In this document: in pieces, positions 2,800-61,657 of the stretch
How the letters are laid out: each line of letters opens with the position of its first letter
Position numbering within the stretch: the stretch's first letter is position 1
Source: Amoebophrya sp. A120
Lineage: Eukaryota > Protista > Dinoflagellata
Direction of reading: 5' to 3'
Length of the DNA: 64,000 nt
NCBI GenBank assembly: GCA_905178155.1
Contig: CAJINV010000005.1
Coordinates: 290,254 to 354,253, forward strand
Notes under the pieces: generated by a model
The model's database searches: none
Told to the model about the DNA's origin: nothing
Seen by the model: the letters and a program-made list of their open reading frames with translations, nothing else
Made by a program: the position numbers and the translations under genes

Positions 2800-5700
2800 A
2801 TGACCAAGGTAACTAGAGGTCTGCTAGCGCTAATAGTGAACGCGGTACCATTCTGGTTGGATGATTCGTATGAGACGTCGTTCAACGGCAATATTATCTT
2901 CCTCACTTGTACAAGAAGTACTCTTTTCGTCAAGGCGTTTCAGTTCGTGAAACCCCAGAAGAGTCTTAACAAAGGAAGCCTCCGCCGAGACATCGTCGCA
3001 GGGAGTAGGAGAAATCTCGACAGATCCGATCGAACGCGAGGGAGTCCCACTGCCGTGGCAGGCAGCAAGAAGTCCGGGCAGCACCAACCGAGGGAAGATG
3101 CTACTGGAATCTCCTGGGTTGCACGAGTACAGGATCTCAGCTTTGCGGAGGAGGCACACCATGCGAAAGCTTCGGGTGATACCTGCGTGGGTTTCCAGCG
3201 GTGCAGCATTCCGGTAACGGGATGGGTGGACACTGGGAATGGCGGCTACAGCGGCGTCGAGGCCAAGCTCGACGAGGATTTATGTGTGTGCGGGTCCGGC
3301 GAGAGCTGCTTCCTGAAGGAGGGAGCCGAGTACGGGGCCTGCTTTGCAGATGTCGATCAGTGTAAGACATCGGTGAAGAATGGTGAGGTTTTCGAAGACT
3401 GGTGCACCGATCAAGGTTCGACGGGGTGTGATGGTGCGTGGTTGTGCCAGACCATCGAACAGTACAATGCGATCCTCACTACACCACCCAACAACGCGGG
3501 CGACACATATCTCTCAGAAAAGAGCACGTCACTGTGAACTGGTAATGCAGATGAGCCTGCTGATGAGCATGCTTAAGCTTGTGCAAATGCAAGTGCGATG
3601 CAGAGCCACAGGCCGAGCGGAGCTCTCTGTCCTGCTGCAAACGCAAAAAAGTGTGTCTTCGTCTAGAAACCACGCAGGAAGATTTTCTTCGACTCCTTTT
3701 TTCTTCTAAAAAGTAGAATACTTGCTGTTATGCAGATCATCGCGCAGACACATCTTCATGTTCATGGTGAGTGATTTTTTTGGCATGATATCGTGCCGGC
3801 CTTGGACCTGAACGTGCAGGTAGAGTGCGACGGTTGTGGTCCAGACGCCGCGGGGCTCGATTGCTACAATGCGTGTGGCACATGGCACTATTTGAATGAT
3901 TGTATTTTGTGCGACAATGTCGTAGTCGTATTGAAACAGCGTCTTGTTGCTTCCTTGCAGCTTTACAAAGTCTGGATGCAAATAAAAACAAGGGACACTA
4001 TCTAACATGCGACTAAATCGCTCCTATATTTTTCTCAACGTGCCTCACGGCTTTGCTACGTGACTACGAAGTGCGGCTACCATGCCATCAAGCACGGACT
4101 CGTTGTCGGCATGCTTGACATGCCCGATGTCCAGAGGAGCGGCGTGGGCGAAGCGCTCTCATACCAGACAAACTAGGAGAAGAACAATTCTTCTATGTGC
4201 TGAGACGATTTTCATTTAATGCGACTACGGCACTTCCCCACATCATACACCGCGGAGAATGCGACGGCTCAGTGTGCAGCAGGCAACCCCATAGAGAAGG
4301 CGACTTGACCGCCTGTAGCGCGTCGGCTCCAGCCGGATCGCCGAACAAGTATATCGGGGGTTGCTGCTTTTATGAGAAGGATGTAGGAATACGGGGACCG
4401 ACAGGAGGAGATCTTCAGACTGGATGTGACCACCTCCGGAGCGTGCAAGACGCGACCGGGCTGGCGGCGCTCGGGACGAATCCTGCGTCCACTGCAGCAG
4501 TGGATAACCTGCCATGGTCTCAGTGGGAATCGTACAAGAGGAACATCTGCATGGCCATCCCCACTGACTGCACGAGCGAGTGCAACGGCAAAGCCGGGTT
4601 GTGCGATTTCTGCAACCCGGGGGACGGTCGGCAGGGTGCCTGCTGCAAGAAGGGCGAGACCGACGAAACCGGCACTGACCCGGGCGGCGACAATGTCTGC
4701 AACCACCAAGAGTCGAGCGGCATGGTCTTTCTATCAAGTGTAAAAATGTCTGGGTCTGGAAACTTGTGACGCTGGGCGGCGTATCATGAGGAGGCCACAA
4801 GTTCTGGCTCAGCATGACAAGTTTCTGAGCTTCTTGGTGTTGCCTAATCTGCATGACAAACTGCGTTTCTGCATGACAGAAAAATGGGGGTCTTGGGTAA
4901 TGCGCATGACAAATTGAAGTGTCATGTGAGACAAGCATGACAAACTTGCATTCTTCCAGACCCAGACATTTTTACATTTGATACTTTCCGTTCGCGGACA
5001 ACATGCGGCAAAGCGCCACGCTGTGGAAGTACGAGTGCGTGGTCGTGCCTGAGCCCGCGGCAGTGGAGTGCGTCTGGGGCGACTGGAGTGCGACCGGAGA
5101 CTGTTCGGAGACCTGCAGCGGGTCGAGCGGGACACAAACTTACACGCGGTCTAAAGAGCCCGCTAGTGAAGCGTGCGCCGAGACTGAGACCGAAAGCCGG
5201 GCTTGCGTCGGCATCTCGGCGTGCGAGTCTTGTGTGGCCAGCTGGAATGTCACGGAGGAGGTGCTGGTGAGCCAGTGCGAGGGCAAAGGGGAAACTCTGA
5301 CGAGGAAGTACGAAGTTTCGGAGGGTGCGGCAGAGTGCCCGCACGTTTCAGGCGAGACACAGAGCATCCTCTGCCCAACGGACTGCACGGGGTCCTGGGA
5401 GGTACAAGGGGCCTGCACCGGTGCGGGCGAGACTCTGACGGAAATGTTCAACCGAGTAGAAGCAGAACCGGGCATGCATATAAATGGCACGGAGATCGCA
5501 GCGAGCTCGTGTGACCTACCCATAAATGGTACGACACAGGACAGTAGTACCGCGTGCCCGCTGCATACCTGTACCTGTGAGCACGGCGAAGCCGAAACAG
5601 GTTCGGACTGCATTGAAGATGGCGTGACTGTGGGGTGTGTGGTTGGCGGATGCAATAACGACGTGGCCGGCTACTACCACAACGATGGTGGTGAAGCAGG

Positions 5701-8700
5701 GAACAATTGTGTGGCTAATTCTTGCAAGTGCGATCACGGAACTGAGTTGGTTAGTGCTTTGCTGTGCGAGCAAAATGATGAGACAGTTGGATGTGTGGAT
5801 GGCGGCTGCCTTGACGGCTACTTCAACGTGGACATAGGCAATGGAGATGGCAGATTTGATTGCCAATTGAAAGAGTGTACCTGTGAGTTCGGTGAATCTG
5901 CTATAGGGTCCGAATGCCCAGAGAACGGCGCGATGCAGTGCCGTGACAATGAATGCGATTCTGGGTACCGGAACAATCCAACGGACGTACGGAAGGAGTG
6001 TGTCCCCAACACCTGCGCATGTGCCAACGGCGAGCCTCTCGTGGACGCTGTCTGTGAGTCACACGAAAACACGATCGGGTGCAGCGAAACTGGCTGCCAC
6101 GAGGGGTACCACCACGAAGAGATCGATGGAGGTGATGGGCGGGGCACCTGTGTAGAGAACCAATGCACCTGTGAAAATGGCTTTCCACTGACGGATCCTG
6201 CAGTTTGTACAGAGCACCAGAGTACGCCCGGCTGTGCTAGCTGCAAGGAGAGCGAGGGTTTCAAGCTGCATGCAGAGGATCACTCCTGCGTGCGTGACTG
6301 TGAGGGTTCGTGGAACGTCACGAACGGAGATTTTATGCATTGCAAATATGTCGCGGTCTGGAATGCTGCAACATGTCACGCTGAGTCAAGAGCGCACAAA
6401 TATCTGTGTTGCATGAACGCCAAAAGCCGCCAGCTTCTTGCTACTTGCGCAAAGGGCAAATGTCCCATGCGGGATAGGCATTGAGGAGTCGTCGTGAAGG
6501 TTGTGATGCTTCTGTGTGCATTCCACACCATTTGCGTTATACGCGAGATGCATGAAGACAGACGTTGCGTTCTTCCAGACCCCGACGTATGTGCATTTGA
6601 TAGATTTCGTGGCTATGCAATTATGCAGTGCAGTTGCAGGAAACGGAGAAGTGATTACCCGAGTGTACAGCGTTGTAAGGAGCGCAATTGGCGCCGCTGC
6701 CGAAGCTTGCGAAGCCGGTGATGGCACTCAAGAGACCATCACTTGTCCGACGGATTGCCAAGGCTTCTGGAATGACACAGAATTACTACCGGAGACGGTC
6801 TGCACAGGGGCGGGCGAGACGTTATCGCGTACCTTCACACGGACAGAAGCAGTAAATGGTCGGGATGAAAACAACTCGGAGATCGTGGCAGGAACGTGCA
6901 CCCTCCCAGCGGCCGGCGCAATAGAGAAGATTACGTGCCCGACGAACTGCACGGGTTTCTGGGACGTCGTAGAACTGGAACAAGAATGCACCGGGGCGGG
7001 CGAGACCTTTTCGCGTACCTTTACACGGACAGAAGCAGTAAATGGGGAGGATGTAAATGCCGCTGTGATCGCGGCAGCCACGTGTGACCTCCGTGCAAAT
7101 GGCACGACAGAGTCTATCACGTGCCCACTGCACAGCTGCATCTGCGCCCACGGTGAAGCCGAAACAGGCTCGCGCTGCAATGCGGACGGCGAAACGGTGG
7201 GGTGTGTGCAAGGGGAATGCAACAACGACGGCCAGTTGGGGCACTACCACAACGACCCTCGAGATACTGAAGGAAATAATTGTGTAACTAATTCTTGCAA
7301 GTGCGTCCACGGATCGGCGCTGGTGAGTGCGGATTTGTGCGAGGAAAACGGTGTGACGGATGGGTGTGACCCCCAACAAGTCTGCAACTCGGGGTATCAC
7401 TACGAGGAGATTGATGGAGGCGGTGGACGGGGCACCTGTGTAGAAAACCAATGCACGTGTGCAAACGGAAACTATGCTACCGGAGTCGAATGTCAAACCC
7501 ACGGCGAGCAAAAGTGCGTGGCGCCGTGCCACGAGGGCCATCACTTGAGCGGGGAGAACACCTGCGTCGTCAATACCTGTCGTTGCGCGCACGGCGTGCC
7601 CCTTACGGACGCAGCTTGCCTAGTGCATCAAAACACGATCGGGTGCACGCAGGATGGGTGCGACGAATGGTACCACCCAGTGCCTGCAACTGGTAACAAT
7701 GTTACTTGCGAAATAAACCAGTGTTTTTGCGATGCAGGCACACACAAAACCGGCGAGGGTTGCGCTGACGACGGTGGGACGGAGGGCTGCACTGATTGCG
7801 CCGACGAAGACTACCACAAAGTTGGCACGGAATGCCGGCTAAAGGAATGCACGTGCGCCAACGGTACTCCCGCCACGGGGTCCGTTTGTAGCGACCCCCC
7901 TCCGGAGAAGTGCAAAGAGTGCGCTAGCGGCTACCACAAAGAAGCAGACGACAGTTGTGTTGCGAATGAGTGCGCGTGCGACAACGGTTCTCCACTGACG
8001 GATCCTGGAATCTGTACAGAACACCAGAGCACGCCCGGCTGTGCCAGTTGCAGCAACGGATTCTATCTGCGAGAACAAGCCTGCGTGCGTGACTGTGTAG
8101 GGGCGTGGAACGTGTCGAACGATGTGTTCGCGACTGGGGAATTGTGCAGTGCAAGTAGAAACGGGCAAGTGTTCACGCGAGAGTACAGCGTCACAAGCAG
8201 CCCGGTCGGCGGCGGCGCAGCTGCTTGCGAAGAGGCGGATGGCGCTCAAGAGACCATCATTTGTCCGACCGACTGCGTGGGGTCATGGGACACGGACCCC
8301 GATGACGTAGTGGATACACGGTGCGCGGGGGACGGCGAGACGGTGACGGTCATGTACACCGTAACGACGTCAGCGGTAGATGGCCAGGGGGCTGACGGTA
8401 CCAGCTGCAAATTGTGAATCTGGGATGTCTGCTGAAAACAATGTGCATAACTAACCAAATAAGTTAGTCCTTTTTTGATGGGGATTGTTTTTCAGGAGAG
8501 CTCGCGATTTTGATATTGAGAGGCCTTGTTAGTTTGACACTCATGATGGTGCTGTCTCCGCCGGTACAATTGTTGTTTCCGGCATGAGAACAAAGGTATT
8601 TGCGCAGTCGGCCCTTAATACAGGATGTAATTTGTCATATGAGTGGTCTTGTAAGACACAGCAGAAATCCAGACCTCGACAGGTTTGCACTGCATAAGAG

Positions 8701-11700
8701 GGAGTGTGATCAACGCAGCCGAGTGTTCGCCCGCGGGCGACACAACGCAAGATATCACCTGCCCCACGGATTGCCAGGGTTCCTGGAATGACACTGAGTT
8801 ACTACAAAGCACGCTCTGCTCTGCCGGAGACGGAAAAGTAGTGACGCGAGTCTATACGCACGATCGGGCCGCACTGAATGGTGGGAATGACTGTGATTAC
8901 GTGAATGGGCATCAAGAAACCCTCACCTGCCCGACGAACTGCACGGGTTTCTGGGACGTCGTAGAACTGGAACAAGAATGCACGGGGGCGGGCGAGACGT
9001 TGTCGCGTACCTTCACCCGAACAGAAGCAGTAAATGGGGAGGATGTAAATGGCTACGAGATCCCGGCAAGCACGTGTGACCTCCCAGAGAACGACAAAGA
9101 AGAGGAGATTACGTGCCCAAGGAACTGCACGGGCCTCTGGGACGTCGAGCTTCCCGACCTGGAACAGAATTGCACGGGGGCGGGCGAGACGTTGTCGCGT
9201 ACCTTCACCCGAACAGAAGCAGTAAATGGGGAGGATGTAAATGGCTACGAGATCCCGGCAAGCACGTGTGACCTCCCAGAGAACGACAAAGAAGAGGAGA
9301 TTACGTGCCCAAGGAACTGCACGGGCCTCTGGGACGTCGAGCTTCCCGACCTGGAACAGAATTGCACGGGGGCGGGCGAGACGTTGTCGCGTACCTTCAC
9401 CCGAACAGAAGCAGTAAATGGGGAGGATGTAAATGGCTACGAGATCCCGGCAAGCACGTGTGACCTCCCAGAGAACGACAAAGAAGAGGAGATTACGTGC
9501 CCAAGGAACTGCACGGGCCTCTGGGACGTCGAGCTTCCCGACCTGGAACAGAATTGCACGGGGGCGGGCGAGACGTTGTCGCGTACCTTCACCCGAACAG
9601 AAGCAGTAAATGGGGAGGATGTAAATGGCTACGAGATCCCGGCAAGCACGTGTGACCTCCCAGAGAACGACAAAGAAGAGGAGATTACGTGCCCAAGGAA
9701 CTGCACGGGCCTCTGGGACGTCGAGCTTCCCGACCTGGAACAGAATTGCACGGGGGCGGGCGAGACGTTGTCGCGTACCTTCACCCGAACAGAAGCAGTA
9801 AATGGGGAGGATGTAAATGGCTACGAGATCCCGGCAAGCACGTGTGACCTCCCAGAGAACGACAAAGAAGAGGAGATTACGTGCCCAAGGAACTGCACGG
9901 GCCTCTGGGACGTCGAGCTTCCCGACCTGGAACAGAATTGCACGGGGGCGGGCGAGACGTTGTCGCGTACCTTCACCCGAACAGAAGCAGTAAATGGGGA
10001 GGATGTAAATGGCTACGAGATCCCGGCAAGCACGTGTGACCTCCCAGAGAACGACAAAGAAGAGGAGATTACGTGCCCAAGGAACTGCACGGGCCTCTGG
10101 GACGTCGAGCTTCCCGACCTGGAACAGAATTGCACGGGGGCGGGCGAGACGTTGTCGCGTACCTTCACCCGAACAGAAGCAGTAAATGGGGAGGATGTAA
10201 ATGGCTACGAGATCCCGGCAAGCACGTGTGACCTCCCAGAGAACGACAAAGAAGAGGAGATTACGTGCCCAAGGAACTGCACGGGCCTCTGGGACGTCGA
10301 GCTTCCCGACCTGGAACAGAATTGCACGGGGGCGGGCGAGACGTTGTCGCGTACCTTCACCCGAACAGAAGCAGTAAATGGGGAGGATGTAAATGCCGCT
10401 GTGATCGCGGCAGCCACGTGTGACCTCCCTGCAGATGGTGCGACAGATTCGATCACGTGCGCACTGCACAGCTGCACCTGCGCCAACGGCGTAGCCGAAA
10501 TAGGTTCACGCTGCGATGCGAACGGCACAACGGTGGGGTGCGTGGATGGGCAATGCCACAACCACGAGGACTCTGGCTACTACCACAACGATGATAGCGA
10601 AGGGAGGAATTGTGTAGCTAATTCTTGCAGGTGCGAACACGGAGCCGCCCTGGTTAGTGCAGAATTCTGCGAGGAAAACGGTGTGACGGCTGGATGCGCT
10701 GGCGGCGAGTGCAATCCTGGGTACCGGAACAACCTTACGGACGTAGGAAAACAGTGCGTCCCCAACACCTGTTTCTGCGCCCACGGCGAGCCTCTGATCG
10801 ACGCTGCTTGCGAGGTGCACGGAAGCACTTCTGGCTGCACGGAGAGTGGATGTTTCTTAGGGTACCACCCCGTGAATCAAAGTAACACGACAGCGACTAA
10901 TTTCACGTGCGAAATAAACCGCTGCTATTGCGACCAAGGGGCGGAGCATTACAAAACCGGCGCGGACTGCGCTGCCGACGGCACGACGCTGGGCTGCACG
11001 GAGTGCAGCGATGGTGATTACTACCTAGACGGCCATGAGTGCAAGTTGCGGGAGTGCACTTGCCCGGGTGGCGACGCGGCCACAGGTGCCGGTTGCGAGG
11101 AAAGCGGCAACACGGTCAAGTGCATTCGCTGCACAGCGGACGGATTCCACCTGAACGATACGAACAGCCTGTGCGAGCAGAACGAGTGCACCTGTGCAAA
11201 CGGGACTGCAGCGCTTAGGGAAGCTTGCACCGACGACGGGGCCAATATCTGCACTGATTGCCATTCTGGGTTCCATCTGAATGGCACTGCCTGCGAGGCA
11301 AACACCTGCGTTTGCGCAGACGGAGTTAAAGCGACCGGAGATGCGTGCACCGGCGACGGGGCCAATATCTGCATTGATTGCCATTCTGGGTTCCATCTGA
11401 ATGGCACTGCCTGCGAGGCAAACACCTGCGTTTGCGCAGACGGAGTTAAAGCGACCGGAGATGCGTGCACCGGCGACGGGGCCAATATCTGCATTGATTG
11501 CCATTCTGGGTTTCATCTGAATGGCACTGCCTGCGAGGCAAACACCTGCGTTTGCGCAGACGGAGTTAAAGCGACCGGAGATGCGTGCACCGGCGACGGG
11601 GCCAATATGTGCACTGATTGCCATTCTGGTTTTCATCTGAATGGCACTGCCTGCGAGGCAAACACCTGCGTTTGCGGAGACGGAGTTAAAGCGACCGGAG

Positions 11701-14700
11701 ATGCGTGCACCGACGACGGGGCCAATATCTGCATTGATTGCCATTCTGGGTTCCATCTGAATGGCACTGCCTGCGAGGCAAACTCCTGCGTTTGCGCAGA
11801 CGGAGTTAAAGCGACCGGAGATGCGTGCACCGGAGACGGGGCCAATATCTGCACTGATTGCCATTCTGGGTTCCATCTGAATGGCACTGCCTGCGATGCA
11901 AATGCCTGCGTTTGCGCAGACGGAGTTAAAGCGACCGGAGATGCGTGCACCGGCGACGGGGCCCATATCTGCACTGATTGCCATTCTGGGTTCCATCTGA
12001 ATGGCACTGCCTGCGAGGCAAATACCTGCGTTTGCGACAACGGCGTGGCTCTACAAGGCGCTCCCACCTGCGAGGCCGATGGTGTAACGCTCGGCTGTGA
12101 CACCTGTAACGACGGTTTCGAAAAGAGTGGGCTTTCTTGCGTGGCCGCTGGGGGAAACGCCACCACCGGTGAGAACGGCACGGAGCTGCCGGTTGCTGTG
12201 CGGGAGTTCGAAATGGACTTGAGCCTCAACGGCACCCTCTTCGCGGACATTGAGGAAGCCCTGCGGAGAGAGGAGCTTCGCAGCTCGGTGACGCGGGGGG
12301 TGCTGGACTTCCTTCTCGGCACCGGGGTCACGGGCCTTACCTTGGGGCAGTTCGAGACGGCGAACCTGACGGCTTTGAACGTCACCCGTGGGGATGATGA
12401 TGGCACAAACCACAGCAACACCACGCCGGCGGAAAACTCCGGCAGCAGCGGTGGGTCCGGCTCTGGAGCAGGGTCCTTTTTGCAGCATCAACTCGTGGTT
12501 CCCAGGTTGACGGCTCCGCGGAGGCCAAAAGTCGCACGCGGCCTCGTAGTAGGAGCCGCAACGAGGACGGCGCAAGAGATGGGGCGCCGCGGGCGCACGA
12601 AAAAGACAAGTTTTCTGGACACGCTTCATCTGCACACGGAGACAGTCGAAAAGTTGGTTGAGCAGCCTGGTGGCGACACCGACTTTGTGTATGTCGATGT
12701 TCTGGCCACATTCGGCATCCGGGCGCCGCAAGCAACGCTGCTGCTAGTGGACTATTGGTGTATCGATGTGGCAAGCGGAAAATCGTCATAGTGGAAGATA
12801 ATGAAAGAAATTATGTCACTCTCCTGCTTCATTAGACAGGAACACGATATCATTCCTGCTCCTGTAAAGGAGAGGCGTAATGAATCAAGAGCTGCTGCAA
12901 AAGTGGCTCTCGCTCATACTGTCGTTGTCAGTCGTAAGCTTCGTGATGAAAAACATGTTCTGACCGCGGAACAGTACAATAGATTTTTTATGCGACAGCA
13001 AAGCTGTAGGCCTGAACTGGAAAACAGCACAGCTTCCACTTCGCGAAATTCTCGTCTGAAACTTGCATAACGTGGCGCGGTGCTGACACCGTTCCGGCAG
13101 ACGGATCCGCTTTCGTGAGTGGAGACCAGGCACTCGGCGCTGCAATTGCGAGCGCCGTTAACGGCGCCCCGGGGTTGCTGGGCGTGCAAGTCGTGGGGAA
13201 CGCTACGATTCTGACGCCGGCTGGCACAACCACGACCACCACCACCACGCTCTTCGTGGAGGGACCCAACAAGTCCGTGACGCGCGGGTCCCGCGTCCAG
13301 CTGGCCTGTCCCGAGTGCGGCGACGAGGCGCCGGCCGCGCTGCACTGCTATCAGAAGTGCTCCTGGGCGTGGAATTCGCCGCATTGCGCGGAAGCCTGCC
13401 TCGTGCAGGGGGTTCCCGCGGGCGAAGACCCGAACGCGTACGAGGGCGCCTGTTGCGAGTACCGGGCAAAGTTTGCGGGTGCGCCGGAGGATGCGGTGGT
13501 GCCCGCCCCGGGGCAGATGGCGGCCGAGGCCACCACGGAGTGCCAGATCTTGGTGAATTTGGTGAACGCCACGCCCGCGCACGGCGTGACCGAGGCCTTC
13601 CTAAACAGCAACCAGGACGAGTACACCTGCGTGGCCATGCCGCGCTGGATCTCCGCGCGGCGCACGTGGCCGGCGGCCGACGCCTGCGAAGGGCAGTGCA
13701 CCGCGGAGGACCCGACTGGCGCCAACCGCACGCCGGGATGCTGCAAGAAGGGCGACGCGAACTTGTCCGCGGGCGACCCCTGCAGCCGGGTCGCGGACTT
13801 CCCCGTCGCGGACCGGATCGCGGACGCCGCGCTGTGGGAGTACGAGTGCGTGTTCGTGCCGCCGCACGTCGGTGACGAAACCATCACCACGATGCCGACG
13901 CCCAAGGGAGAGGTTAACATCATTGACTTCACCGGGACCACAACAACCGCAGCGCCCGGGGCCGGGGCGGAGCTCAAGAACGGCACCTCCAAAAATACCA
14001 CGTCCGGGGACGGCACTGACGCCGAGGAGGACGACGTGCAGGGCTGGGTGGCTGTGCTCATCATCGTTGGCGCCCTTCTGGTCTTTGCGCTCGGCGTGCT
14101 GGGCATCATATGCTTCTTCCCGCACGCAGACGACGGGGATGAGGATATGACTTCGGAAGGTGCGAACAAAGACGGCAAGAAGGAGCCTTTCGGCGACGCC
14201 TCCGCGGCGCGCCCGAGCAGGAGTAGCGACAGCGCCAAGGAGGGTGGTGCGGGGGCGAAGATAAAATCAGATACCGAGGAAGAAAAGGACGGACGGGAGA
14301 CGGATCAACTAAAGTCCCGGAACTCGTCCGATGCAGAAGAGAATGCTGACAAAGGTACCAAACTAAAATCGCAGGAGGACGAGGATTCGAAGCAGTCACA
14401 GAACGTCCACGACGGAGACGATGACGCAGCCAAGAATATCCTGAGTAAAAACTGATACCCATATTACCCCAGCGTCAAGCGGGGAAGAATTACCGGCGTC
14501 ACAAATCGAGAAGCTTTGGTAGACGCGCATGATGTTGGCAAGTTTCTGTCAGTTGTATCAAGTTTGTCACTTTTCATGGTTCGCAGGGACAGCCGCATCA
14601 CGTTTATCCCCATTAGAAATAGTAACAAAAAACGTCGACTCGTCGAAATTTCTCTCATTGCGATCATTCTGCGCATATTTATTACAAATGCTCCTGCTGT

Positions 14701-15892
14701 AGTCGATCATGCAGGTCCGCGTGACAAAGACAACTCTGGGGTGGTGAGGTTTTTACTTAGCATAAAGAAGTCGCAAGAGGACGAGGACATGACCGAGGGC
14801 GACGGGGGCGGCGAGGCCGTGGCCAAGGGGAAAAGCGGCCAGGAGAGTGCGGACATCCACCGGCCAGATTCGGTGGAGGGATTTCGGCTGGCCAACTCTA
14901 AGGACAAAATCCAGAGTAAGGAAATGCCGCAGAGTATCCTGAGAGAAAAGCTAATGCGCCATGCTTGTCGTGTGAAAGCAATCGAAAAAATATAAGTAAC
15001 CATATAGTATCTTGAGCACATATGTTCTGCTCGAACGTATTCGGATTGACGGCATTTGCACGACAAATATGAAGCGCGGCTAGCTTTTTTGCCTTCGATA
15101 CCGGGCAAGGAGAACGACATCCATTCCTTCGAAGGCGGCGGTGGCATGATCTCCAACTCGGCCATGACCCCCGGCGAGGTGGGCGGCACGACAGGACAGG
15201 CTGGCGCGGCGGGCTTCGCGGCCAGCGTATCCAAGGCGTTCGGCATGAAGGTGGATGAGCGCAAGTCCCTGGCTCAGGCGGTGATGGACGCTAAGCTCCA
15301 GGCGGCAACGGAGCCCCGAAAGTCGATGGCGCAAATGATTCAGGAGGAGCAGCAGGCAGCAAAGCAGGTGGTCGCAGAGTCCTCCGACGACGAAGCAAAG
15401 CGGGCCTTGTCGTTCGGGCACGGAGGACAGAGCGCCGACCACGTGATCTCGGTGCGCGACGGAGATCCGCCCGCGGGGGGCGCGAATCCCGCGCCGGCAG
15501 ACGGTGGCGCCGGAGATTCGGACCCGGCACAGCAGTTGCGCGGGGACACGAAGAAAAGCAAGAAGAACAAGAAAGACACGAGCAGGAGCAGGAGTCTCGT
15601 GCAAGCCGGGTCGCCCAACAACACGGACACGGACCAGCCGCCCGCGGAGATGAAAGAGAAAAAAGCTAAGAAAAATAAAGAAAACAAGGCGTCGCGGCGC
15701 AGCGCCCGGGGCGGGGGGGCCACTCCGACCGAAACCGCCTCCAGTGACGGCGCCGAGCAGGCCTCCATGGTAATCCGGGACAAGAAAAAGAAGAAGAACA
15801 AAAGCGGGCGAGCCACGTCGACCCCGGTGGACAGCGGCGAAAAAAGATTTAAGAAGAAGAGAAGTAAGATGCCTAGTATTATTGTCAAGTAG
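2800..15892 (+). CDS. Very large cysteine-rich type-I membrane/surface protein, paralog A (TSP1-like and EGF/furin-like Cys repeats, single TM, Lys-rich cytoplasmic tail)
   Basis: ORFs 2752, 3793, 4197, 5003, 6516, 8685, 13115, 14516 and 15056 can be joined. Junctions at 3508, 4732, 6334, 8399, 12761, 14437 and 14935 are in frame after element removal; the intron at ~3920-4210 is unresolved. CVWGDWSATGDCSETC TSP1-like motif, CxCxxG repeats, TM GWVAVLIIVGALLVFALGVLGIICFF. Confidence 0.8.
3508..3790. mobile_element. Degenerate introner
   Basis: Imperfect TIR TATCTCTCAGAAAAGAGCACGTCACTGTGAA / TTCATGGTGAGTGATTTTTTTGGCATGATA; TSD lost; element+5 = 288 nt, in frame; paralog C has no intron here. 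Confidence 0.6.
4732..4983. mobile_element. Introner/MITE-like element, family A
   Basis: TIR TATCAAGTGTAAAAATGTCTGGGTCTGGAA / TTCCAGACCCAGACATTTTTACATTTGATA; TSD CTTTC; removal gives MVFPFADN. Confidence 0.95.
6334..6602. mobile_element. Introner element, family A
   Basis: TATGCATTGCAAATATGTCGCGGTCTGGAA ... TTCCAGACCCCGACGTATGTGCATTTGATA; TSD GATTT; removal gives NGDFVAMQLC. Confidence 0.93.
8399..8696. mobile_element. Degenerate family A-like introner
   Basis: Right end CCAGACCTCGACAGGTTTGCACTGCATA, left end decayed (starts TAC); flanks GACGG / AGAGG; 8398-8700 is an in-frame GT-AG intron. Confidence 0.7.
8979..10395 (+). repeat. Coding tandem repeat, 192-bp unit (64 aa), ~7.4 apparently identical copies
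   Basis: TGTCGCGTAC recurs at 9001, 9193 ... 9961; unit CTGAGETLSRTFTRTEAVNGEDVNGYEIPASTCDLPENDKEEEITCPRNCTGLWDVELPDLEQN. Confidence 0.97.
11226..12036 (+). repeat. Coding tandem repeat, 120-bp unit (40 aa, 6 Cys), ~6.8 near-identical copies
   Basis: Unit CTGDGANICxDCHSGFHLNGTACEANTCVCADGVKATGDA with scattered substitutions. Confidence 0.97.
12761..13069. mobile_element. Degenerate introner
   Basis: Imperfect TIR TATCGATGTG...AGTGGAAG / CTTCCACT...ACTTGCATA; flanks TGGTG / ACGTG; element+5 restores frame (DYWWRGADT). Confidence 0.65.
14437..14764. mobile_element. Introner element, family B (older copy)
   Basis: TATCCTGAGTAAAAAC... / ACTCTGGGGTGGTGAGGTTTTTACTTAGCATA; TSD AAGAA; removal gives AAKKSQEDED. 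Confidence 0.88.
14935..15100. mobile_element. Introner element, family G (degenerate)
   Basis: TATCCTGAGAGAAAAGCTAATGCGC..TTGTCGTG / CACGACAA..GCGCGGCTAGCTTTTTTGCCTTCGATA; flanks CAGAG / CCGGG; element+5 = 171 nt, in frame. Confidence 0.75.
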
Positions 15893-49300: not shown

Positions 49301-51450
49301 TATATTTTAGATAATCGCTTGAATTGATGCGATGTAATACGACATTTATTTCTACTTGCACTTCGATTGCTTCTATCGCGTCCTCATACAGACAGGGATT
49401 CGCACTTTCCTCTTGATCATGAACTGGTGCTTTATTTTTTGAGTTTTGCTTTTACAACTCTAAAATCCTTCTATGCAGGTCCGCGCAAGAAGAAGCCCGG
49501 TGAAAAGGACGAGGGGGAGCTGAAGAAGAAAAAGACCGTCGAGAACATCGATGCGAAAGCGTCGCTGAAGCGGAAGAATTCCCGCGTGCGCCCGGGCGGC
49601 GGGGAGATGACGCGCGAGGTGCAGGAGGGCGAGAAGGTCCAGCGGAGAAGGAGGAAAACCGTGATCAAAGAAGGAATGAAGTCCGCGCAACTGGAGAAGT
49701 TGGTGAAGTTTCGGAATCGGGAGCCGGATGCCAAGGCCGGCGCGGAGGTCAACCACATCGTCATGACCGCCATGGACGACGCCAGTCCACGTATAATTTG
49801 TGATTTCTTTTGGGTTTTAGCGATGACGCTGTGAGATAGATTCTTGTCGCATGAGTGAACGTGAAGCTGCCTGAAGCAAAAGCATGAAGGGTAGGTGTGA
49901 ATGTGTCATAGCATACATAAAACAGAAAACCGTTCGCTCCGTGCGGCGGCTGCGGGCAGTGATCCTACGTGCATGACGATGACCGTGAGTCGCGAGCGCA
50001 TTGACCAGATCCAGAAGGACGTGATCGACAGTATGCGGCCAGAGCCCTTGTATCACACAGAAAAAAACTTGCAGGTCATATTTGTAATGAAAAAATAAGT
50101 AGATTAAAAAAACTGCATTGCATATCCTAAATAGCATGCTATGAGGCCGCCCATGACAGACTTTCCTGTGTACTTATTTATTTTTGCATTACAAATATGC
50201 CCTGCCAGCTTTTTTCTGTGGGATACCTTGTCGCCCATGCGCAAGCGCGAGTTCAACCCTTACCGGAACAAGTTGCGGAAGCTGATCGGGAAACGCGAAG
50301 ACGACATCAAACAGATGGGCGCGAAAGTACTTGACTTATTGACATTTGAACTTTGAACCGTATTGCAGCAGTTGATTTCGGACTGCAGTGCCCTTCTTTT
50401 CTATCTCGACCTGTTTTTCAACACGTAGCGAGTTTTTCTTCAAAATACAGGGCAGCATGCGCGGCGGCGCAGGGAGGCGGGGACGCGGCGGGGGCCAGGG
50501 CAGCATATGGATTGCAAAAATGTCTGGGTCGGGAGACTTGTGATGCTAAAATGTGGATGATGGAAACAGTTTCGAATGCAACCTAGCATGACAACTTTCC
50601 AGAACACTTTCTCATAGGCAATCCGCATGAGAAACTGCGTTCTTGCATGTATAAAAGAGGCTGGGACTTCTATTGGTTTTGCAATACAGATCGCCTAGGT
50701 ATGAAAAGCTAGCATTACAAGTTCCAAGCTTCCAGACCCAGACATTTTTGCATTCGATACAGCAGCGACGACGACGACGAATTCGGGGTGCTACCCGACG
50801 TGTCCCACGCCGAGCGCGGCGGCGGCGAGGAGGGCGACGAGGGCGAGGACGCCGACGGCGAGGAGCACAGTATGATCAAGATGGTGAACAAGAAGGGCAA
50901 GAAGAAGCACGGCAAGGACAACGCCTCCACCGAGTTCGACGGCGCGGACAGCTCTTTGCTGCTCCGCGGCCCCTCGCACAGCCGGTGGGACCGGCCCTGG
51001 CGCCGCGACGGCGTGCGCAACCCCGTGCCCGCGGACTTGAAGAACGGGCCCTCGACCGCGTCCCAGAAGCGGCCGGTGCACTTGGCGACGAGTCTGGGGG
51101 TGGGCAGCCTGGACCAGATCCGCGACACGGAACTGTTTGCCAAGTTCCAAGAGGAGCTGAACCCGGTCACCGCGTTCGGCGACAAGGACGAAATCTACGA
51201 ATTCCTGTCCAACTCCGCCAACTTCCTGCGCGACACGGGGGACACCAACGTGCGGCACGTGTACGAGGCCTGGACGCGGCAATACGACAAATGGAGGGAG
51301 AACAAGGGGCTGCCGCCGCGACAAAAATACCACATCGACCTGCCCTCCAGCACGAGCGGGTCGCGGTCCGGCACGGCCGCGTCCGGGAGTCGGCCGGCGC
51401 CTGGGCCGCCGGAGGGTGCGACCGGAGGCGGGGAAGGAGGAGGGGATTGA
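46310..51450 (+). CDS. Large spliced protein with a divergent FtsJ/RrmJ-like methyltransferase-fold segment and charged tail
   Basis: Frame is continuous across six elements (46480, 47186, 47957, 48376, 50051, 50506) and GT-AG introns (49300-49478, 49791-49925, ~50328-50450). Segment GLRPGGCMVLIW...FFDDVNLLSSP...MESLVVCSGY resembles the C-terminal half of FtsJ-type folds; product call tentative. Confidence 0.6.
46480..46801. mobile_element. Introner element, family D
   Basis: TATTGGGAGGAAAAACCCCTCCTCCCCAT / ATGGGGAGGGGGGATTTTTCCTTTTGATA; TSD GATCG. Confidence 0.92.
47186..47493. mobile_element. Introner element, family E
   Basis: ~50-bp TIR TATGGAAGTGTCAGAATCGAAATTGGCAAAATCGAAAAA / TTTTTCGATTTTGTCGATTTCGATCCTGACACATCCATA; TSD TGAAG. 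Confidence 0.94.
47957..48267. mobile_element. Introner element, family D
   Basis: TATCAAAAGGAGAAAGCCCCCCTCCCCATATCGAAA / TTTCGATATGGGGAGGGGGGATTTTTCCTGTTGATA; TSD GCCAT. Confidence 0.94.
48376..48666. mobile_element. Introner element, family B variant
   Basis: TATCCCGTGTGAAAACGTCCCCACCCCAT / ATGGGGTGGGGACGTTTTTGCACAGGATA; TSD ACGAG. Confidence 0.93.
50051..50225. mobile_element. Introner element, family G
   Basis: TATCACACAGAAAAAAACTTGC / GCCAGCTTTTTTCTGTGGGATA; TSD CCTTG; removal gives PEPLSPMRK. Confidence 0.88.
50506..50759. mobile_element. Introner element, family A
   Basis: Family A TIRs; TSD CAGCA; removal gives QGSSDDDDEF. Confidence 0.93.
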
Positions 51451-55052: not shown

Positions 55053-55737
55053 TAAGCAGAAACTGCATGAAGATGAACAAAACGTACATATAGAAAACGT
55101 AGAAGATGAGACTCGAAACGCATTATTCAAATGCAAGATGCGGACAGAAAATGGAACAGCGTGATCTGCGTTGCGGGTGCGCGTCATTGATGCCAAAGAC
55201 AGAATGAACTTTCAAGGCCAAGAAATTTGCCTTGGAGGTTGTGTATGATGAAGAGGACGAACTGAAAGCAGTATTTTTATGGACGATAAGTAGAACGAGA
55301 TCGACCGCGGCTTGATGCTCCGTCCAGCTTTGCTGCACATTGGTGTAAGCGCAGACGCTTTATTGTGTTTGTGTTCTGAAAAAAGGACAGCTGGAGAATG
55401 CGCAGCTGCGGATTTGATATTGCTGACGCTGCGGGAAGACCGGCGCGCAAACACGTACGTAGATGAGACTCAGCTCAGTTGTAGAGGTGCAAATTTATTA
55501 CGACACCACGATAGGCGTTTCATAATTGCAAGACTTACCAATGATGTGAGTCCACTGCTTTGAACTTGGAGTTTGAAAGTAATCCTCATTGGCTAGCGAA
55601 ATAAAGATAAAATCTAGTGAAGAAAGAACAAAACTGCTGCAAGAACATCACATTCACATGGAAGCGGTTTCTCTTAGCACCAGATTCAACCCCCACAGAA
55701 ATTTTTGTATCAAGATTCAAACTCATACTCAGAAATC

Positions 55738-56502: not shown

Positions 56503-57276
56503 AGACGTAAAATGATCAAAGATAGGATTGCAGCTTCTGTGCCTGTGCTGGGGAGAAAAACATATCGATATTGATGTGTTGGCTTTTACGTACTTATTCA
56601 AAATTTTGCACGGAGAACGAGCAGGAGTTCACTAATGCAGCAGAACAATGCTACAGTGTGATTTCTGTCACACCAACGACCTGCAACTCCTGCAACAGTA
56701 GTTACATGCAACTCAGATGAGCATCTCGGTGTCGGTCTCGATAGTCGTGCAGACATTCATCTGAAGGTGAAGCGAAGTTGCTCCGCTTGCTAGTCTTGCA
56801 ACGACATACCGGAATTCGTTGCTCTGTCGGTATAGCTGCCACCCATGATCTCATCTTTATGTCGGTGTCATTTTTTCATATTCAGCATCCAAGCAAAACG
56901 AGCTTACGACAGCAAGAAGATCCTGGTGGTCGAGTATGAAAAGTCTGTCCTCTGTTTTTTCTGAGCGACCACGCTTTCGCCTTTTTTTGAGATGATGCAC
57001 AAGATCCGGTTTTTTTCGAGCGATACATTGAGAGCCTGCCAGGAAAATAAAAGCGCATCAGCTTTTTCAGTGCTACTTTTCATACTTATGAGGTGACACG
57101 TAAATTTTACGCAACATGCCACAGTACCCCCGCGACCGGTCGTATCGTGAGGGTTTTCATAGTGCGTAGTCAAGCAAAAGGAACACACTTGAACTTCTGC
57201 GAGATCAAAACAAAAAGGAGTCAACAAAAGACCTAGAGGTTCTGAGGTGGCACAACACCAACACGGTAGTATCCGC

Positions 57277-60200
57277 ATGTCGGCGGCATCGTCGCCCAAC
57301 CCGCGGGCGGCCGCGGGTCAGGCCCAGCAGGCGGTGAACCGGGTTGAGCAAATTGCGAACCAGCTGAATGTAAGTCCCTTCACGTTGAAAGTCGGGGCCG
57401 GGGCCGTCGCCGGGGCGGTGGTGTCGACCGCGGTGCTGGGAAAAAAGGCAAACTTCCCCGTAGAAGCGCCACCAAAAAACACGGCAGAAACGTTGCCAGT
57501 GTTCGAGGAAGGAGAGATCGTTTACACCGCGGACCCGGCGGCGGAAGTACTATTACACTTTGCTATTGGGCGACGCGTTCACTTCTGCAAAAATTATGCG
57601 AATTTATTCACAACTTATCGGAAGTTGTGGAAGTCCAAGTTCTCCTGCTTTCATGTACTTTACTTACACTGGACATTCGGAAAAAAGCATCGATCGACCT
57701 TTACTCAAATAAAAATTTCCTGCAGGTTAAACTCCACCCAGCCAAGGCCGGCCCTGCGTCGCTGCAAGCCGCCCCGGCGGAAACGATCATAGACATAATA
57801 GGCCGAATAGAAGCGAAGTCGCCGAATGTGCTCTGCCTATCCGTGGAGAGGCCCTGCCCGAAAAACGACGGACAAGGGGCACTCTCGCTGCCGCCAGAAA
57901 AGTGGACCAGTTGGACTTGGAAGGAGTTCATAGAAGACAGCAAGCTCGCGGCGAAGGCTTTTATGGAGCTTGGTATGGCGCATTTTGGGTCCGTAACCTG
58001 TTTTGGGGTGAACGCGCCGGAATGGCACCTATCGGCAATAGGATCGATCCTTGCCGGCGGAAAAGTAGCAGGGATCTACCCAAGTGACACGGTATACTTG
58101 ATTCATCACAAGAACGTCGTCCTTCTGTTGACGTTGTGTCTGACGCCGTTGCATGTTGAGCTACATGTTTTTGCAGTGTGCTTTTTTTACGATTTGCAAA
58201 GCCCGTAGCACTAGTACCAGCGTCGTAATCCCATATTGAAGTTGAAAAATAGACAAAGAGCAATGCATTTTCAGGTCGAGCACTGCATCTTCAAGAACAA
58301 GTGCGCCGGCGCCACCGTGGCAATAGTGGAAACCTGCGAGAAGGCGAAAATGGTTTTGGACAACATTGCGCAGCTGCCACGTATGAAGGCGGTGGTAGTG
58401 TTTGATCCTGAAGCGAAATTTGAGGAAGTAACCAGTGGTGCGGGCTGCAAATATATGCGTTGGGACACGATGATGAAGTGGGCAAAAACCCTGAAAAATC
58501 AAGACGCAGAGCTCAAACAGAGGATGAACAAGGTAGAGTACTACTTTCGAAGGCCGGATTTTGATCATGCGGAGTACTAGTTGTATTCAGATACACCACT
58601 TCTAGTAAACTACTAGTGACGCAGCTTGATTGCTCTCTACCGTTTGTGAAGAACAAGTATTGCTCGCTACTTCTGATTTGTATGAAGGTAAAAAGAAAGG
58701 GAAAGGTGCGGTCTCTCTAAGTTGATGAAACTACGAATGGGAAAAATATGATATCTTTGGTGCTACATCAGATCCGACCCGGCCACGCGATGAACGTGGT
58801 ATATACGAGCGGGACAACGGGAAATCCAAAAGGTGTCATGCTTTCGCAGGACAATAGCTGGAGCACGTGTGCCATCTTCCTCAAGCCAGTCACGCAGGAC
58901 CTGACCCCGCCACACCGAATTTTGTCCTACTTACCGCTACCACACGTCACCGGCTTCTTGGCCGACATCGCGCTGCCGATGTGGCTGGTATAAGATAACG
59001 GGGCTGTAATTTTACCTACTTATGCTGATCATGTGCCTGATCACTTGTGTTTGAGTTTTTCTCTGGTGTAACGAACATGATTCAGTGTGTCAGTAAAGAA
59101 TATGCTCTCGTCGAGGCGGCTTTTGCAGTCCTCCGCTTGTACGGGGCGTCAAGTATCAGGTGACAGCACAGCTCAGGAATGCTCCTAGCGCAGCGCCGGA
59201 GAGGGCTTGGATTTCAGCTTTATTATGAAAAAAACTATAGAACAACTTCTACTTTCAGACGGCCAACAGCCAGCCGACCTCGATCTATTTCGCGCGGCCG
59301 TATGACTTGAAAGAGTCCACGATCGGCTCGCGCCTCCTGACCGTGCGGCCCACGATCTTCGTGGCCGTGCCGCGCGTGTATGAAAAGATTGCGGAGAAGC
59401 TCAAAGCCGTTGCAGCCACTGTGACGGGCCCGATGAAGGCGATCAGCACCTGGGCAAAGGCGAAAAACAGCGAACACATGGGGATGCGACAGTTCGGGAA
59501 GGGAAACGGCGAGTACCCGGCGAATTTCACCCCGGCCAACTTTGTCATGGGCAAGGTCCGGCAAAAATTAGGGTTGGATCAGGCACAATGCTTGATATCC
59601 GGTGCGGCACCGATTACCATGGAGACCTTGGACTACTTTGGGAGTTTGGGTAAGTACAAAAAAATGTTCTAGGTGCTAGTTTTCTTCTTGGGCAGAACTG
59701 AGTAGTAAAAAGAAGGTGGACGCGATAAGTAGACACGACTTCCTTATCTTCTGGGGTTTCTTTAGTAGAACCAGTTTGTGTAATTTTCGTCTCGTACGCA
59801 GAGCCAGATCGAAAGCAGCACGAAAACAATTGCTCACACGACTTCTCAGGCCTGATGATTTTGGAACTGTACGGCATGTCGGAGTCCACGGGGCCGACCA
59901 CGCTGAACACCCTGCGCACCGTGAAGTGGGGCACCATCGGGTACGCTCCGCAGGGGGTGGAAGTGGGGGTGTTTAACACGATGGACCCGAAGAACCCGAT
60001 GCAGTGGGTAAAACCTATGGCGTTCTCAACTGTTAAGTACATTCTCAGCTGTTGCATGAATTTGCGATGCAAAAATGGCAAAAGTGAAATGGGTGGCCTT
60101 CCGTATTTTGCATGACAGGTTTGGTACAGATTCGCAGCTTGTTTGGCACTTCGAGAACTCGCCATGCGAAGCAGCTTGGCCGTGTCGATTTTGGTAGTAA

Positions 60201-61657
60201 ATTTGCATGACAAGTCATGTAAGAACAGTTGATAATGTAACATTTGAGAACGCCATAAAACCCTGCGCCGATTTGTCCGCGCCGAGCGAGTATCAAATGC
60301 AAATATGTCTAGGTCTGGAAGAGTGCAGATTTTTCTCATGCTGTTTTTGCATGCCTCAGAAGGTGTGGCATGGAGGCCTTAGCATCACAGGCATTCATAA
60401 GGTTCCGCAATGCCCAATGCGCATGACAAATGCCCCATTTTCGTGACAGAGAATGGGCAACTTTTGCTGCCTATGCATGAGAGGTTTGTGTGTGTTGCGA
60501 AATGCGCATGAGAAGTTTAACTCCTCCCAGACCCAGACATATTTGCATTTGATAGCGAGCAGGAGCAGGGAGAGCTGTGCTTTCGGGGTCGGCACATCAT
60601 GATGGGGTACCTGGCAAACCCAGATCTGGGGGAGGAGCACATGGCCGAGGTCAAGAAAAAGAACAAGGAGGCGCTGGTACCTGGGGGCTGGATGCTGTCC
60701 GGGGATAAGGCCTGCATGGATAAGGACGGTATAATTCATTCGAAGCTGTTGTACTTGCTTCTATTCGGCAGTAGAGGTGTTTCTTGTTGTTTATTGCGGT
60801 GGTAGGTTCTCCTTATTTCCATGATGTTTGCTGTTATTTCTTGGAAGATAGATATGGTCAAAAATCCAGGTTTTTTCCGCATCACGGGGCGATACAAGGA
60901 ATTGATTATCACTGCCGGGTATCAAATGCAACCATGTCTTGGTCTGGAAATCTGCTAGGTTCGTCATGCAGGTTTTCCATGCGGCTCCATGAGGTCTTGA
61001 ATGCAGGACTTAGCCACCTAGCATGACAGATTCTGTGTTTAGGGTCTCTGCCGGTTCTATCCTGCATGAGAAACTCCTGCTTAATTTGGTCAAAGAAAAT
61101 GGGCAAACCTCATTGAGATTCATGCAAGAGAGATTAGATTTTCGTGTGGGTGTGACTCACAGGGCCTCCTCGCATCACAAGTGTACACTCTTCCAGACCC
61201 GGATGCATTTGCAATGCATAGTTGGGGTGAAAACGTCGCCCCTGTCCCCATCGAGGACTGGCTGAAGTCGAATTACACCGCGATCTCCAATGTGATGATG
61301 GTCGGGGACAAGAAAAAGTACAATGTCATTCTTGTCACGCTGAAAACCAAGGGCGCCACGGGGGAGCTGCCGGGCGGGGACGAACTGGACGGGGAGGCGC
61401 TGAAAATCGCCCCCGGGGTCACATCCTTGGCGCAGGCCATGAAGGATGACCGGGTATTGAAGTACATCCAGGGCGCCGTGGATGCGGTAAACAAAGAACC
61501 CAAGATCGTCATCTCCAATGCCTGCAAGGTGCAGTTTTTCCGCATTCTCCCGAGGGATTTCTCTATCCAAACAGAGGAGTTCACGCCCACGTTAAAGCTG
61601 AAGCGGTCGGTCGCGGTGGAAATTTGGAAAGATTATATCGATCAGATGTACCAGTAA
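57277..61657 (+). CDS. Long-chain acyl-CoA synthetase (AMP-binding, bubblegum/ACSBG-like)
   Basis: YTSGTTGNPKGVMLS, LSYLPLPH, PTIFVAVPRVYEK, ISGAAP, ELYGMSESTGP, GELCFRGRHIMMGY, SGD, ITGRYKELIITAGGENVAPVPIE, EFTPTLKLKR. Six canonical introns plus elements 60016, 60291 and 60920. Confidence 0.93.
60016..60257. mobile_element. Introner element, family F
   Basis: TATGGCGTTCTCAACTGTTA / TAACATTTGAGAACGCCATA; TSD AAACC; removal gives WVKPCADLS. Confidence 0.93.
60291..60554. mobile_element. Introner element, family A
   Basis: Family A TIRs; TSD GCGAG; interior similar to element 30323; removal gives APSEQEQGELCFRG. Confidence 0.95.
60920..61220. mobile_element. Introner element, family A (decayed TSD)
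   Basis: Family A-like TIRs; flanks CCGGG / GTTGG; removal of 60920-61225 restores conserved ITAGGENV. Confidence 0.92.

What the first reader, a model, noticed from the sequence alone, without database searches (positions are those of the whole stretch)
3508..61220. Multi-family TAT...ATA introner system: TIR elements with 5-bp TSDs acting as non-canonical introns
Seen: about 32 elements of 166-417 bp interrupt coding sequence in 8 genes. Nearly all start TAT and end ATA (a few decayed ends read TAC, ACA) with 20-50 bp inverted repeats, and 20 have a perfect 5-bp direct repeat that differs at every site. Removing element + one repeat copy restores the frame and conserved motifs (kinesin motor, acyl-CoA synthetase GELCFRG and TAGGEN). 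Most have no in-frame GT-AG register at the TSD boundaries. Known: TIR plus variable TSD is the signature of cut-and-paste DNA transposon derivatives (MITEs), and introner elements with inverted and direct repeats have been described in Amoebophrya. Inference: these are removed precisely (RNA splicing guided by the hairpin, or less likely DNA excision) by machinery that does not need GT-AG, since otherwise most genes here would be dead.
Basis: partly seen in the sequence, partly recalled or inferred. Interest (0 to 1): 0.95.

Follow-up and report, generated by a model that had tools for sequence, protein, structure and literature searches.

The report
Amoebophrya transposon introns, fixed cut position
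These are the already published transposon-derived introns of the marine parasite Amoebophrya A120; transcript assemblies lack them cleanly without the usual GT-AG ends, and every informative junction fits one cut position, one base before and four bases after the element, which is likely read by a loosened spliceosome.

Summary
Observation confirmed; the system is published. The window is Amoebophrya sp. A120. I find 35 TAY…ATA inverted-repeat elements (166–417 bp, 15% of the window), 20 with a perfect 5-bp TSD. They match the introner elements of Farhat et al. 2021. Contigs of a probable RNA run skip 11 of 12 elements in the tested stretch, each as element+5 nt; a DNA run holds them unbroken. 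What I did not find in print: where the TSD copies have diverged, all 11 junctions fit one register, 1 nt before TAT and 4 nt after ATA. Three fix it exactly (TT..AG, CT..CC, AT..GA). The inverted repeat thus supplies +2..+4 = TAY, like this genome's GTAY donors (15 of 18), while +1 and the acceptor dinucleotide are free. Elements lie in either orientation. Several spliced old copies have no predicted terminal hairpin, which weakens the hairpin-guided reading. Likeliest mechanism: a relaxed spliceosome that measures the acceptor from the element end (inferred). No transposase was found. The scan noted this register before on seven other windows of this genome.

The parts
   Evidence: splicing inferred from ORF
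3508..3790 (+). old element, TSD 1/5, gene 1
   Evidence: inferred from ORF
3903..4247 (+). old element, TSD 2/5; same position as 28264 in the paralogous gene
4732..4983 (+). element, perfect TSD, family F1a; 87.5% antisense to 33837
6334..6602 (+). element, perfect TSD
8399..8696 (+). element starting TAC, TSD 2/5; GT..AG at register 4 only
12761..13069 (+). element, skipped in RNA contig (314 nt; register 2-5)
14437..14764 (+). element, perfect TSD, skipped (333 nt)
14935..15100 (+). shortest element, skipped (171 nt; register 4-5)
15880..16156 (+). element with 3' end ATC, NOT skipped; holds the stop codon of gene 1
18495..18713 (+). element, skipped (224 nt; register 4-5)
22726..22967 (+). 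element, skipped (247 nt; register 4-5)
23285..23535 (+). element, skipped; register 4 exactly, intron 23284-23539, TT..AG
24081..24497 (+). longest element, starts TAC, skipped (422 nt; register 3-5)
28264..28654 (+). old element starting TAC, skipped; register 4 exactly, intron 28263-28658, CT..CC
29186..29488 (+). element, skipped (308 nt; register 1-5)
30323..30560 (+). element, perfect TSD, family F1b antisense to 36016/37641; skip of 243 nt deduced from contig pieces
30697..31042 (+). old element, TSD 0/5; register 4 exactly, intron 30696-31046, AT..GA, deduced from contig pieces
33837..34090 (+). element in the kinesin motor domain, perfect TSD
   Evidence: absent from annotated P0001
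35695..35973 (+). element in kinesin, family F2; 84.6% antisense to 43340
36016..36277 (+). element in kinesin, 31-bp perfect TIR, family F1b
37329..37580 (+). element in kinesin, perfect TSD
37641..37903 (+). element in kinesin, perfect TSD
39549..39810 (+). element ending ACA, perfect TSD
   Evidence: splicing inferred
40206..40470 (+). element, perfect TSD; GT..AG at register 4 only
43340..43618 (+). element, family F2, perfect TSD
46480..46801 (+). element, family F3, perfect TSD
47186..47493 (+). element, 56-bp TIR, perfect TSD
47957..48267 (+). element, family F3, perfect TSD
48376..48666 (+). element, family F2, perfect TSD
50051..50225 (+). element, 52-bp TIR, perfect TSD
50506..50759 (+). 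element, perfect TSD
60016..60257 (+). element in acyl-CoA synthetase, perfect TSD
60291..60554 (+). element in acyl-CoA synthetase, upstream of GELCFRG
60920..61220 (+). element in TAGGEN of acyl-CoA synthetase, TSD 2/5; motif kept only for registers 3-5
33386..38715 (+). kinesin host gene; spliced model identical to A120 protein P0001 (1,250 aa)
2746..15892 (+). gene 1: ORF of 3,618 codons after removal of 8 elements; cysteine-rich repeats, no Pfam hit in the exon scanned
57268..61657 (+). AMP-binding (acyl-CoA synthetase-like) host gene with 3 elements and 6 predicted GT-AG introns

Best explanation
These are Amoebophrya A120 introner elements: short non-coding inverted-repeat transposon copies with a 5-bp target duplication that are missing from transcript contigs as element plus 5 nt, cut 1 nt before the TAY start and 4 nt after the ATA end, most likely by the cell's own spliceosome with relaxed splice-site rules. 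Shown: anatomy, RNA-level absence for 11 elements, presence in DNA, the register at three junctions. Inferred: a cut-and-paste transposase, not found, inserted them in either orientation. Because the two ends are mirror images, the transcript always begins the element with UAY and ends it with AUA. N-UAY is read as the donor, matching the GUAY of ordinary A120 introns at +2..+4 with +1 left free. The acceptor is set by distance from the AUA end rather than by AG; a branch adenosine in that AUA (-7 or -5) is a guess. Four bases of the left TSD and one of the right stay in the mRNA, so the original coding sequence is restored and the insertion is nearly neutral. The terminal hairpin may help bring the ends together but is probably not required.
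For: Organism and protein. RNA contigs: 9 of 9 element joints equal element+5 nt, alongside 2 GT-AG joints; two more deduced (checked). All 11 are compatible with register 4 and three with it alone; under independent uniform registers 0-5 the chance is 4.8e-5 for register 4 and about 1.4e-3 for any shared register (sum by hand). The register was written down in the same turn as the first lay, before its result (note). The only two GT..AG solutions among 35 elements fall at register 4. Ordinary donors are GTAY in 15 of 18. In Farhat 2021 Table S4 all nine commonest A120 non-canonical motifs have T at +2, and nearly all spliceosome proteins plus U2/U4/U5/U6 are reported for A120, with U1 snRNA undetected. 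Both orientations occur: (22:17, 9:11, 4:6 for three families among 143 strand-called copies). 5 of 11 skipped elements lack predicted terminal pairing.
Against: No direct evidence of spliceosome action: no lariat, branch point or knock-down. 27 different end-dinucleotide pairs among 35 elements are hard to reconcile with the normal second-step contacts (recalled knowledge). Ordinary introns here all end in AG with no fixed A at -7 (7 of 18), so two acceptor rules would have to coexist. Only three junctions fix the register exactly, from one run that the tool only guesses to be RNA, kept as contigs that drop rare forms. P0001 was annotated with RNA support and may not be independent of that run. 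TAY at +2..+4 could be only a transposase footprint: in 143 young copies the 5' and 3' ends are about equally conserved. Folding predictions on old copies are weak evidence.
Confidence: 0.6

Rival explanations
1. A second, non-spliceosomal pathway: an endonuclease and ligase read the terminal TIR stem and cut at a fixed geometry (1-nt 5' and 4-nt 3' overhang), as proposed for euglenid nonconventional introns.
For: Fixed offsets from a stem, orientation independence and free end dinucleotides fit a structure-reading enzyme. Most young copies fold with strongly paired ends. U1 snRNA is undetected in A120. Euglenid introns pair +4..+6 with -8..-6 and are thought not to use the spliceosome (PMC4770533 passages).
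Against: 12761, 24081, 28264, 29186 and 30323 are skipped with predicted terminal pairing of 0.03 or less. Element +2..+4 equals the ordinary donor, including the TAC variant. Farhat reports the same repeat organisation in 15% of canonical A120 introns, a continuum easier for one machine.
Confidence: 0.25
2. Spliceosomal, but the hairpin is the ruler: the stem hides the interior and positions both sites, and the UAY/AUA letters matter little.
For: No asymmetry of end conservation in 143 young copies; TIR positions 11-15 (A-run/T-run) are well conserved at both ends.
Against: All 9 non-GT-AG joints reported by the RNA lay keep TAY and ATA although TSDs and TIR interiors have decayed. The one element with a changed terminal A is not skipped although its stem is predicted to pair; this is a single case at a gene end.
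Confidence: 0.12
3. Programmed DNA excision, or RNA editing that creates GT-AG ends.
For: The elements look like cut-and-paste transposons, and contigs cannot exclude rare excised molecules.
Against: DNA run X1 covers 12600-20204 in one unbroken, difference-free contig across five elements at flat depth. The run that lacks the elements also lacks GT-AG introns. Farhat found possible editing at only 2-4% of intron boundaries.
Confidence: 0.03

Closest known systems
Introner elements / non-canonical introns of Amoebophrya sp. A120 (Farhat et al. 2021, PMC7789003)
   Same: Same organism; inverted repeats starting TAT, then about seven variable bases and an A-run; 5-bp direct repeats shown in their Fig. 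S19 legend; no GT-AG; RNA-supported removal; many families.
   Different: The text and legends I read call the splice sites variable relative to the hairpin, with IRs 1-5 nt from the sites and no clear dinucleotide signature. Here one register (1 nt / 4 nt), an invariant +2 T and insertion in both orientations are found. I could not see their figures.
Introners of Aureococcus, Symbiodinium and Polarella (bioRxiv 10.1101/2020.10.14.339549 passages; Gozashti et al. 2025, PMC12130899 passages)
   Same: Non-autonomous TIR transposons whose TSD supplies part of the splice boundary at a consistent position; some Polarella classes work in both orientations. A120 is listed as introner-rich.
   Different: Those need G-starting donors (GT/GC/GA, TSDs such as GHNN) and so a restricted target site. 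Here +1 and the acceptor are free: G at +1 in 49 of 143, not above the flanks.
Euglenid nonconventional introns (PMC4770533)
   Same: Non-GT-AG ends at fixed offsets from an end-joining stem; MITE origin proposed; mechanism unknown.
   Different: Their stem is +4..+6 with -8..-6 (CAG/CTG) with purine/pyrimidine border rules. Here the TIR starts at +2 and ends at -5, and the T at +2 matches the spliceosomal donor.
Fritillaria borealis MITE-derived introns (as summarised in PMC11282704)
   Same: TIR and TSD-bearing non-canonical introns; the title of the cited primary paper attributes them to an evolved U2 spliceosome.
   Different: Dominant ends there are AG-AC and AG-AT; here 27 end pairs among 35 elements, with only +2 T fixed.
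IS3EU/GingerRoot DNA transposons (PMC10045372, PMC12730594)
   Same: TA..TA termini, TAYGG..CCRTA in fungal families; several ends here read TATGG. Gozashti 2025 reports an A120 TIR family with LTR-retrotransposon (Copia/Gypsy) homology.
   Different: TSDs there are usually 6 bp, here 5 bp; no transposase was found, so this is a lead only. hAT5 (5-bp TSD) is an alternative.

Membership tests
Amoebophrya A120 introner elements (Farhat 2021) | Host genome is A120 | tested here: met
   Exon 34098-34919 is 100% identical to an A120 protein; the full model equals it
Amoebophrya A120 introner elements (Farhat 2021) | Terminal inverted repeat starting TAT, seven variable bases, then three or more A | tested here: met
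   Profile of 62 ends from 31 elements: T61, A60, T59 at 1-3; A 44-57 at 11-15
Amoebophrya A120 introner elements (Farhat 2021) | Direct repeat of 3-5 nt at the exon/intron boundary | tested here: met
   20 of 35 perfect 5-mers; skips equal element+5 in 11 of 11
Amoebophrya A120 introner elements (Farhat 2021) | Removed from transcripts at non-GT-AG sites | tested here: met
   11 of 12 elements in 12600-32599 skipped in run X3 (RNA is the tool's guess; its contigs also lack GT-AG introns)
Amoebophrya A120 introner elements (Farhat 2021) | Repeated, family-forming | tested here: met
   Up to 87.5% identity within the window; 20 window elements have relatives of 69-95% identity in 149 loci of one other assembly
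U2-type spliceosomal intron | GT (or GC) donor and AG acceptor | tested here: not met
   2 of 35 elements; RNA-fixed ends TT..AG, CT..CC, AT..GA
U2-type spliceosomal intron | Donor identity at +2..+4 of this genome | tested here: met
   TAY in 35 of 35 elements against GTAY in 15 of 18 ordinary introns
U2-type spliceosomal intron | Lariat with branch adenosine; dependence on U2/U5/U6 | not testable with these tools
   No raw reads of this strain were available (X10 laid only at a repeat)
MITE (non-autonomous TIR transposon) | TIRs, constant-length TSD, no coding capacity, subterminal repeats | tested here: met
   the two subterminal motifs occur 34 and 30 times inside elements against 1 and 2 outside
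MITE (non-autonomous TIR transposon) | Cognate autonomous transposase | tested here: inconclusive
   No genome held. Three long copies (631-1,104 bp) have only chance-length or low-complexity ORFs; the longest has no Pfam hit
IS3EU/GingerRoot | TA..TA termini | tested here: met
IS3EU/GingerRoot | 6-bp TSD (usual) | tested here: not met
   5 bp by flanks and by RNA skip length
IS3EU/GingerRoot | IS3-like DDE transposase | not testable with these tools
   No autonomous copy found
Euglenid nonconventional intron | Conserved pairing of +4..+6 with -8..-6, mostly CAG/CTG | tested here: not met
   Arms are complementary from +2 with -5, and begin TAY

The most novel reading that the evidence does not exclude
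The apparently signal-less non-canonical introns of A120 (over 60% of its introns) follow one hidden code, N-UAY…AUA-NNNN, masked by TSD alignment ambiguity. A spliceosome without a detectable U1, which has given up +1G and the AG acceptor and measures the 3' site from the transposon's own end, lets any insertion, at any site and in either orientation, be removed without a scar. The bolder form is that a separate non-spliceosomal enzyme does it.
Probability: 0.6. Interest if true: 0.75.

Novelty: already known. Interest (0 to 1): 0.45.

Why it matters
The open question left by Farhat et al. is how these introns are spliced. A fixed register turns 'variable splice sites' into a rule that can be tested directly (lariat sequencing, minigenes, re-annotation of about 40,000 non-canonical introns) and would explain why this transposon class spread so far: it needs no particular target sequence or orientation. 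If spliceosomal, it would be an extreme natural relaxation of the +1G and AG rules.

Tried and rejected
No genome was held, so no genome-wide census or transposase search was possible. No holder is on record as RNA. Raw-read run X10 laid only 86 partial reads at one repeat and looks like another strain; X7 covered 9 of 30 bins; neither was informative. A bias to G at intron +1 (17 of 35, p=0.036) was not repeated in 143 copies (49, p=0.17) and is rejected. A fixed branch A at -7 in ordinary introns was not seen (7 of 18); two of 17 candidate ordinary introns (near 39886 and 49281) were dropped for lack of a clean solution. End asymmetry among young copies is slight: first T changed in 0 of 143, last A in 4 of 143, and the finder required 4 of 6 terminal matches. 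The element+k frame control separates only k mod 3 (31 of 34 for k=2, 5, 8; 17-20 otherwise). A candidate at 30834-31083 was a chance TSD; the RNA contig points to 30697-31042. The TIR pattern had no match in viral contigs. Rfam gave no hit in the window. A look-up on short branch-to-acceptor distances in yeast failed and was not repeated, so that parallel is not used.
Full report
Observation. An unbiased scan for flanking 5-bp direct repeats plus inverted ends returned 15 hits, all TAT…ATA. A relaxed scan gave 19 TAT..ATA pairs with a perfect TSD and a TIR, against 0-1 in each of 20 block shuffles. With an end profile, ORF continuity and the RNA joints the catalogue grew to 35 elements of 166-417 bp covering 15% of the window; 20 have perfect TSDs, all different. 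They fall into several families, with 65-88% identity between members, and related copies lie in both orientations within + strand genes. Two mirror-image subterminal motifs occur 34 and 30 times inside elements and 1 and 2 times outside.

Organism and host genes. A kinesin exon is 100% identical to a protein labelled Amoebophrya sp. A120. Removing five elements plus 5 nt each and one GT-AG intron reproduces that 1,250-aa protein exactly, and the junctions align with homologues from other Amoebophrya. The other hosts are three paralogous cysteine-rich genes, an AMP-binding enzyme and two genes without Pfam hits in the exons scanned; a Ctf8-like gene and an EF-hand gene carry no elements.

RNA versus DNA. 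Run X1, whose contigs keep GT-AG introns and so are DNA, holds 12600-20204 unbroken across five elements; it may be the source of the assembly, and 66 joint rows were not shown. Run X3, which the tool only guesses to be RNA, laid at 100% identity on 12650-29700, gave 11 joints: 2 GT-AG introns and 9 elements, each skipped as element+5 nt. Two more skips (243 and 351 nt) follow from contig piece coordinates (checked). Of 12 elements in the stretch, 11 are skipped. The exception, 15880-16156, ends ATC and contains the stop codon of gene 1. The other 23 elements were not tested by RNA: 5 are supported by P0001 and 18 only by frame.

Cut position. With a perfect TSD the junction can slide over six registers (r = bases of the left TSD kept). 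Diverged TSDs remove the ambiguity. Observed: 12761 r2-5, 14437 r0-5, 14935 r4-5, 18495 r4-5, 22726 r4-5, 23285 r4, 24081 r3-5, 28264 r4, 29186 r1-5, 30323 r0-5, 30697 r4. Only r=4 fits all; the chance under independent uniform registers is 4.8e-5 for r=4 and about 1.4e-3 for any common register. Independently, the only GT..AG solutions among 35 elements over 12 registers are two, both at r=4, and TAGGEN in the acyl-CoA synthetase needs r3-5. The intron is therefore N-TAY…ATA-NNNN. At r=4 the 35 elements show 27 different end pairs, all with T at +2. Eighteen ordinary introns (3 supported by RNA or P0001, 15 inferred from frame) begin GTAY in 15 cases and all end AG, so the element end reproduces donor positions +2..+4.

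Larger sample. A TIR pattern matched 151 stretches in the metagenome collection, giving 149 loci (481 kb, overlapping) of one assembly whose strain I did not determine. They hold 361 distinct elements, 263 with perfect TSD. Of 246 with enough flank, 143 could be given a host strand by a codon model trained on the window. In these there is no orientation bias (22:17, 9:11, 4:6), no G excess at +1 (49 of 143), AG at the r=4 acceptor in 13 and GT..AG in 4. These copies are not RNA-verified and the strand calls are predictions. No transposase was seen in three long copies.

Mechanism. Insertion by a cut-and-paste transposase is inferred from TIRs and constant 5-bp TSDs. Removal at RNA level is shown for 11 elements. 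Orientation independence means the signals lie in the mirror-image ends or in the stem they form. Predicted pairing of the three terminal base pairs is 0.03 or less for 5 of the 11 skipped elements, while all keep TAY and ATA; this favours sequence at the ends over a required hairpin. I put a relaxed spliceosome at 0.6, a structure-reading non-spliceosomal enzyme at 0.25, a hairpin-ruled spliceosome at 0.12 and DNA excision or editing at 0.03. Against the favoured reading: there is no lariat evidence, ordinary introns keep a strict AG, and young copies show almost no 5'/3' asymmetry.

What is known. Farhat et al. 2021 (PMC7789003; I read passages, sections 11, 12 and 16, supplement passages and part 3 of 5, no figures) describe these elements in A120: over 60% non-canonical introns, inverted repeats starting TAT, direct repeats of 3-5 nt, 29,850 repeated introns, RNA-seq support, U1 snRNA undetected, mechanism open. 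They describe splice sites as variable relative to the hairpin, yet all nine commonest A120 motifs in their Table S4 have T at +2, as the rule predicts. Gozashti et al. 2025 (passages) add A120 introner families, one with TIRs and Copia/Gypsy homology. Passages of PMC11282704, PMC12005148, PMC11453091, PMC4770533, PMC10045372, PMC12730594 and bioRxiv 2020.10.14.339549 were read for comparison. Five searches showed no paper stating the 1-nt/4-nt register; subscription papers, figures and datasets were not visible. Seven earlier AI notes of this scan report the same register on other windows of this genome; I had it before that look-up and do not count them as evidence.

Verdict. Real, and already known as a system. 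The fixed register, the free +1 and acceptor, and orientation independence are a useful refinement that makes the splicing mechanism testable. Interest 0.45.

Noticed in passing
window:15880-16156: Element whose last A is changed (ATC) is retained in the RNA contig and supplies the stop codon of gene 1; a possible natural loss-of-splicing case or simply a 3'-end insertion.
   Followed up: partly
window:3903-4247 and 28264-28654: Two paralogous genes carry an old element at the same position in the protein, so the insertion likely predates the tandem duplication; TSDs have decayed to 2 of 5 in both.
   Followed up: partly
window:2746-31983: Three tandem paralogous cysteine-rich genes with a hydrophobic stretch near the C-terminus; gene 1 has near-identical tandem repeats at about 8930-10400 (180-nt unit) and 11200-12030. 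No Pfam hit in the exons scanned.
   Followed up: no
window:52040-52094: Orphan 3' end resembling the family of 46480/47957, without a matching 5' end, in a GC-rich intergenic stretch.
   Followed up: no
window:2308: Strong element-like 5' end upstream of gene 1 without a TSD-matched partner.
   Followed up: no
L072:5014-5985, L018:505-1608, L048:3862-4492: Long copies (972, 1,104, 631 bp) with perfect TSDs and family-like ends around unrelated interiors; no transposase evident.
   Followed up: partly
PMC7789003 Table S4: All nine commonest A25 non-canonical motifs start TT and all nine A120 motifs have T at +2, suggesting that the +2 T rule holds in both strains.
   Followed up: partly
window:54124-56499: EF-hand gene with three predicted GT-AG introns and an intronless Ctf8-like gene, both free of elements.
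   Followed up: no
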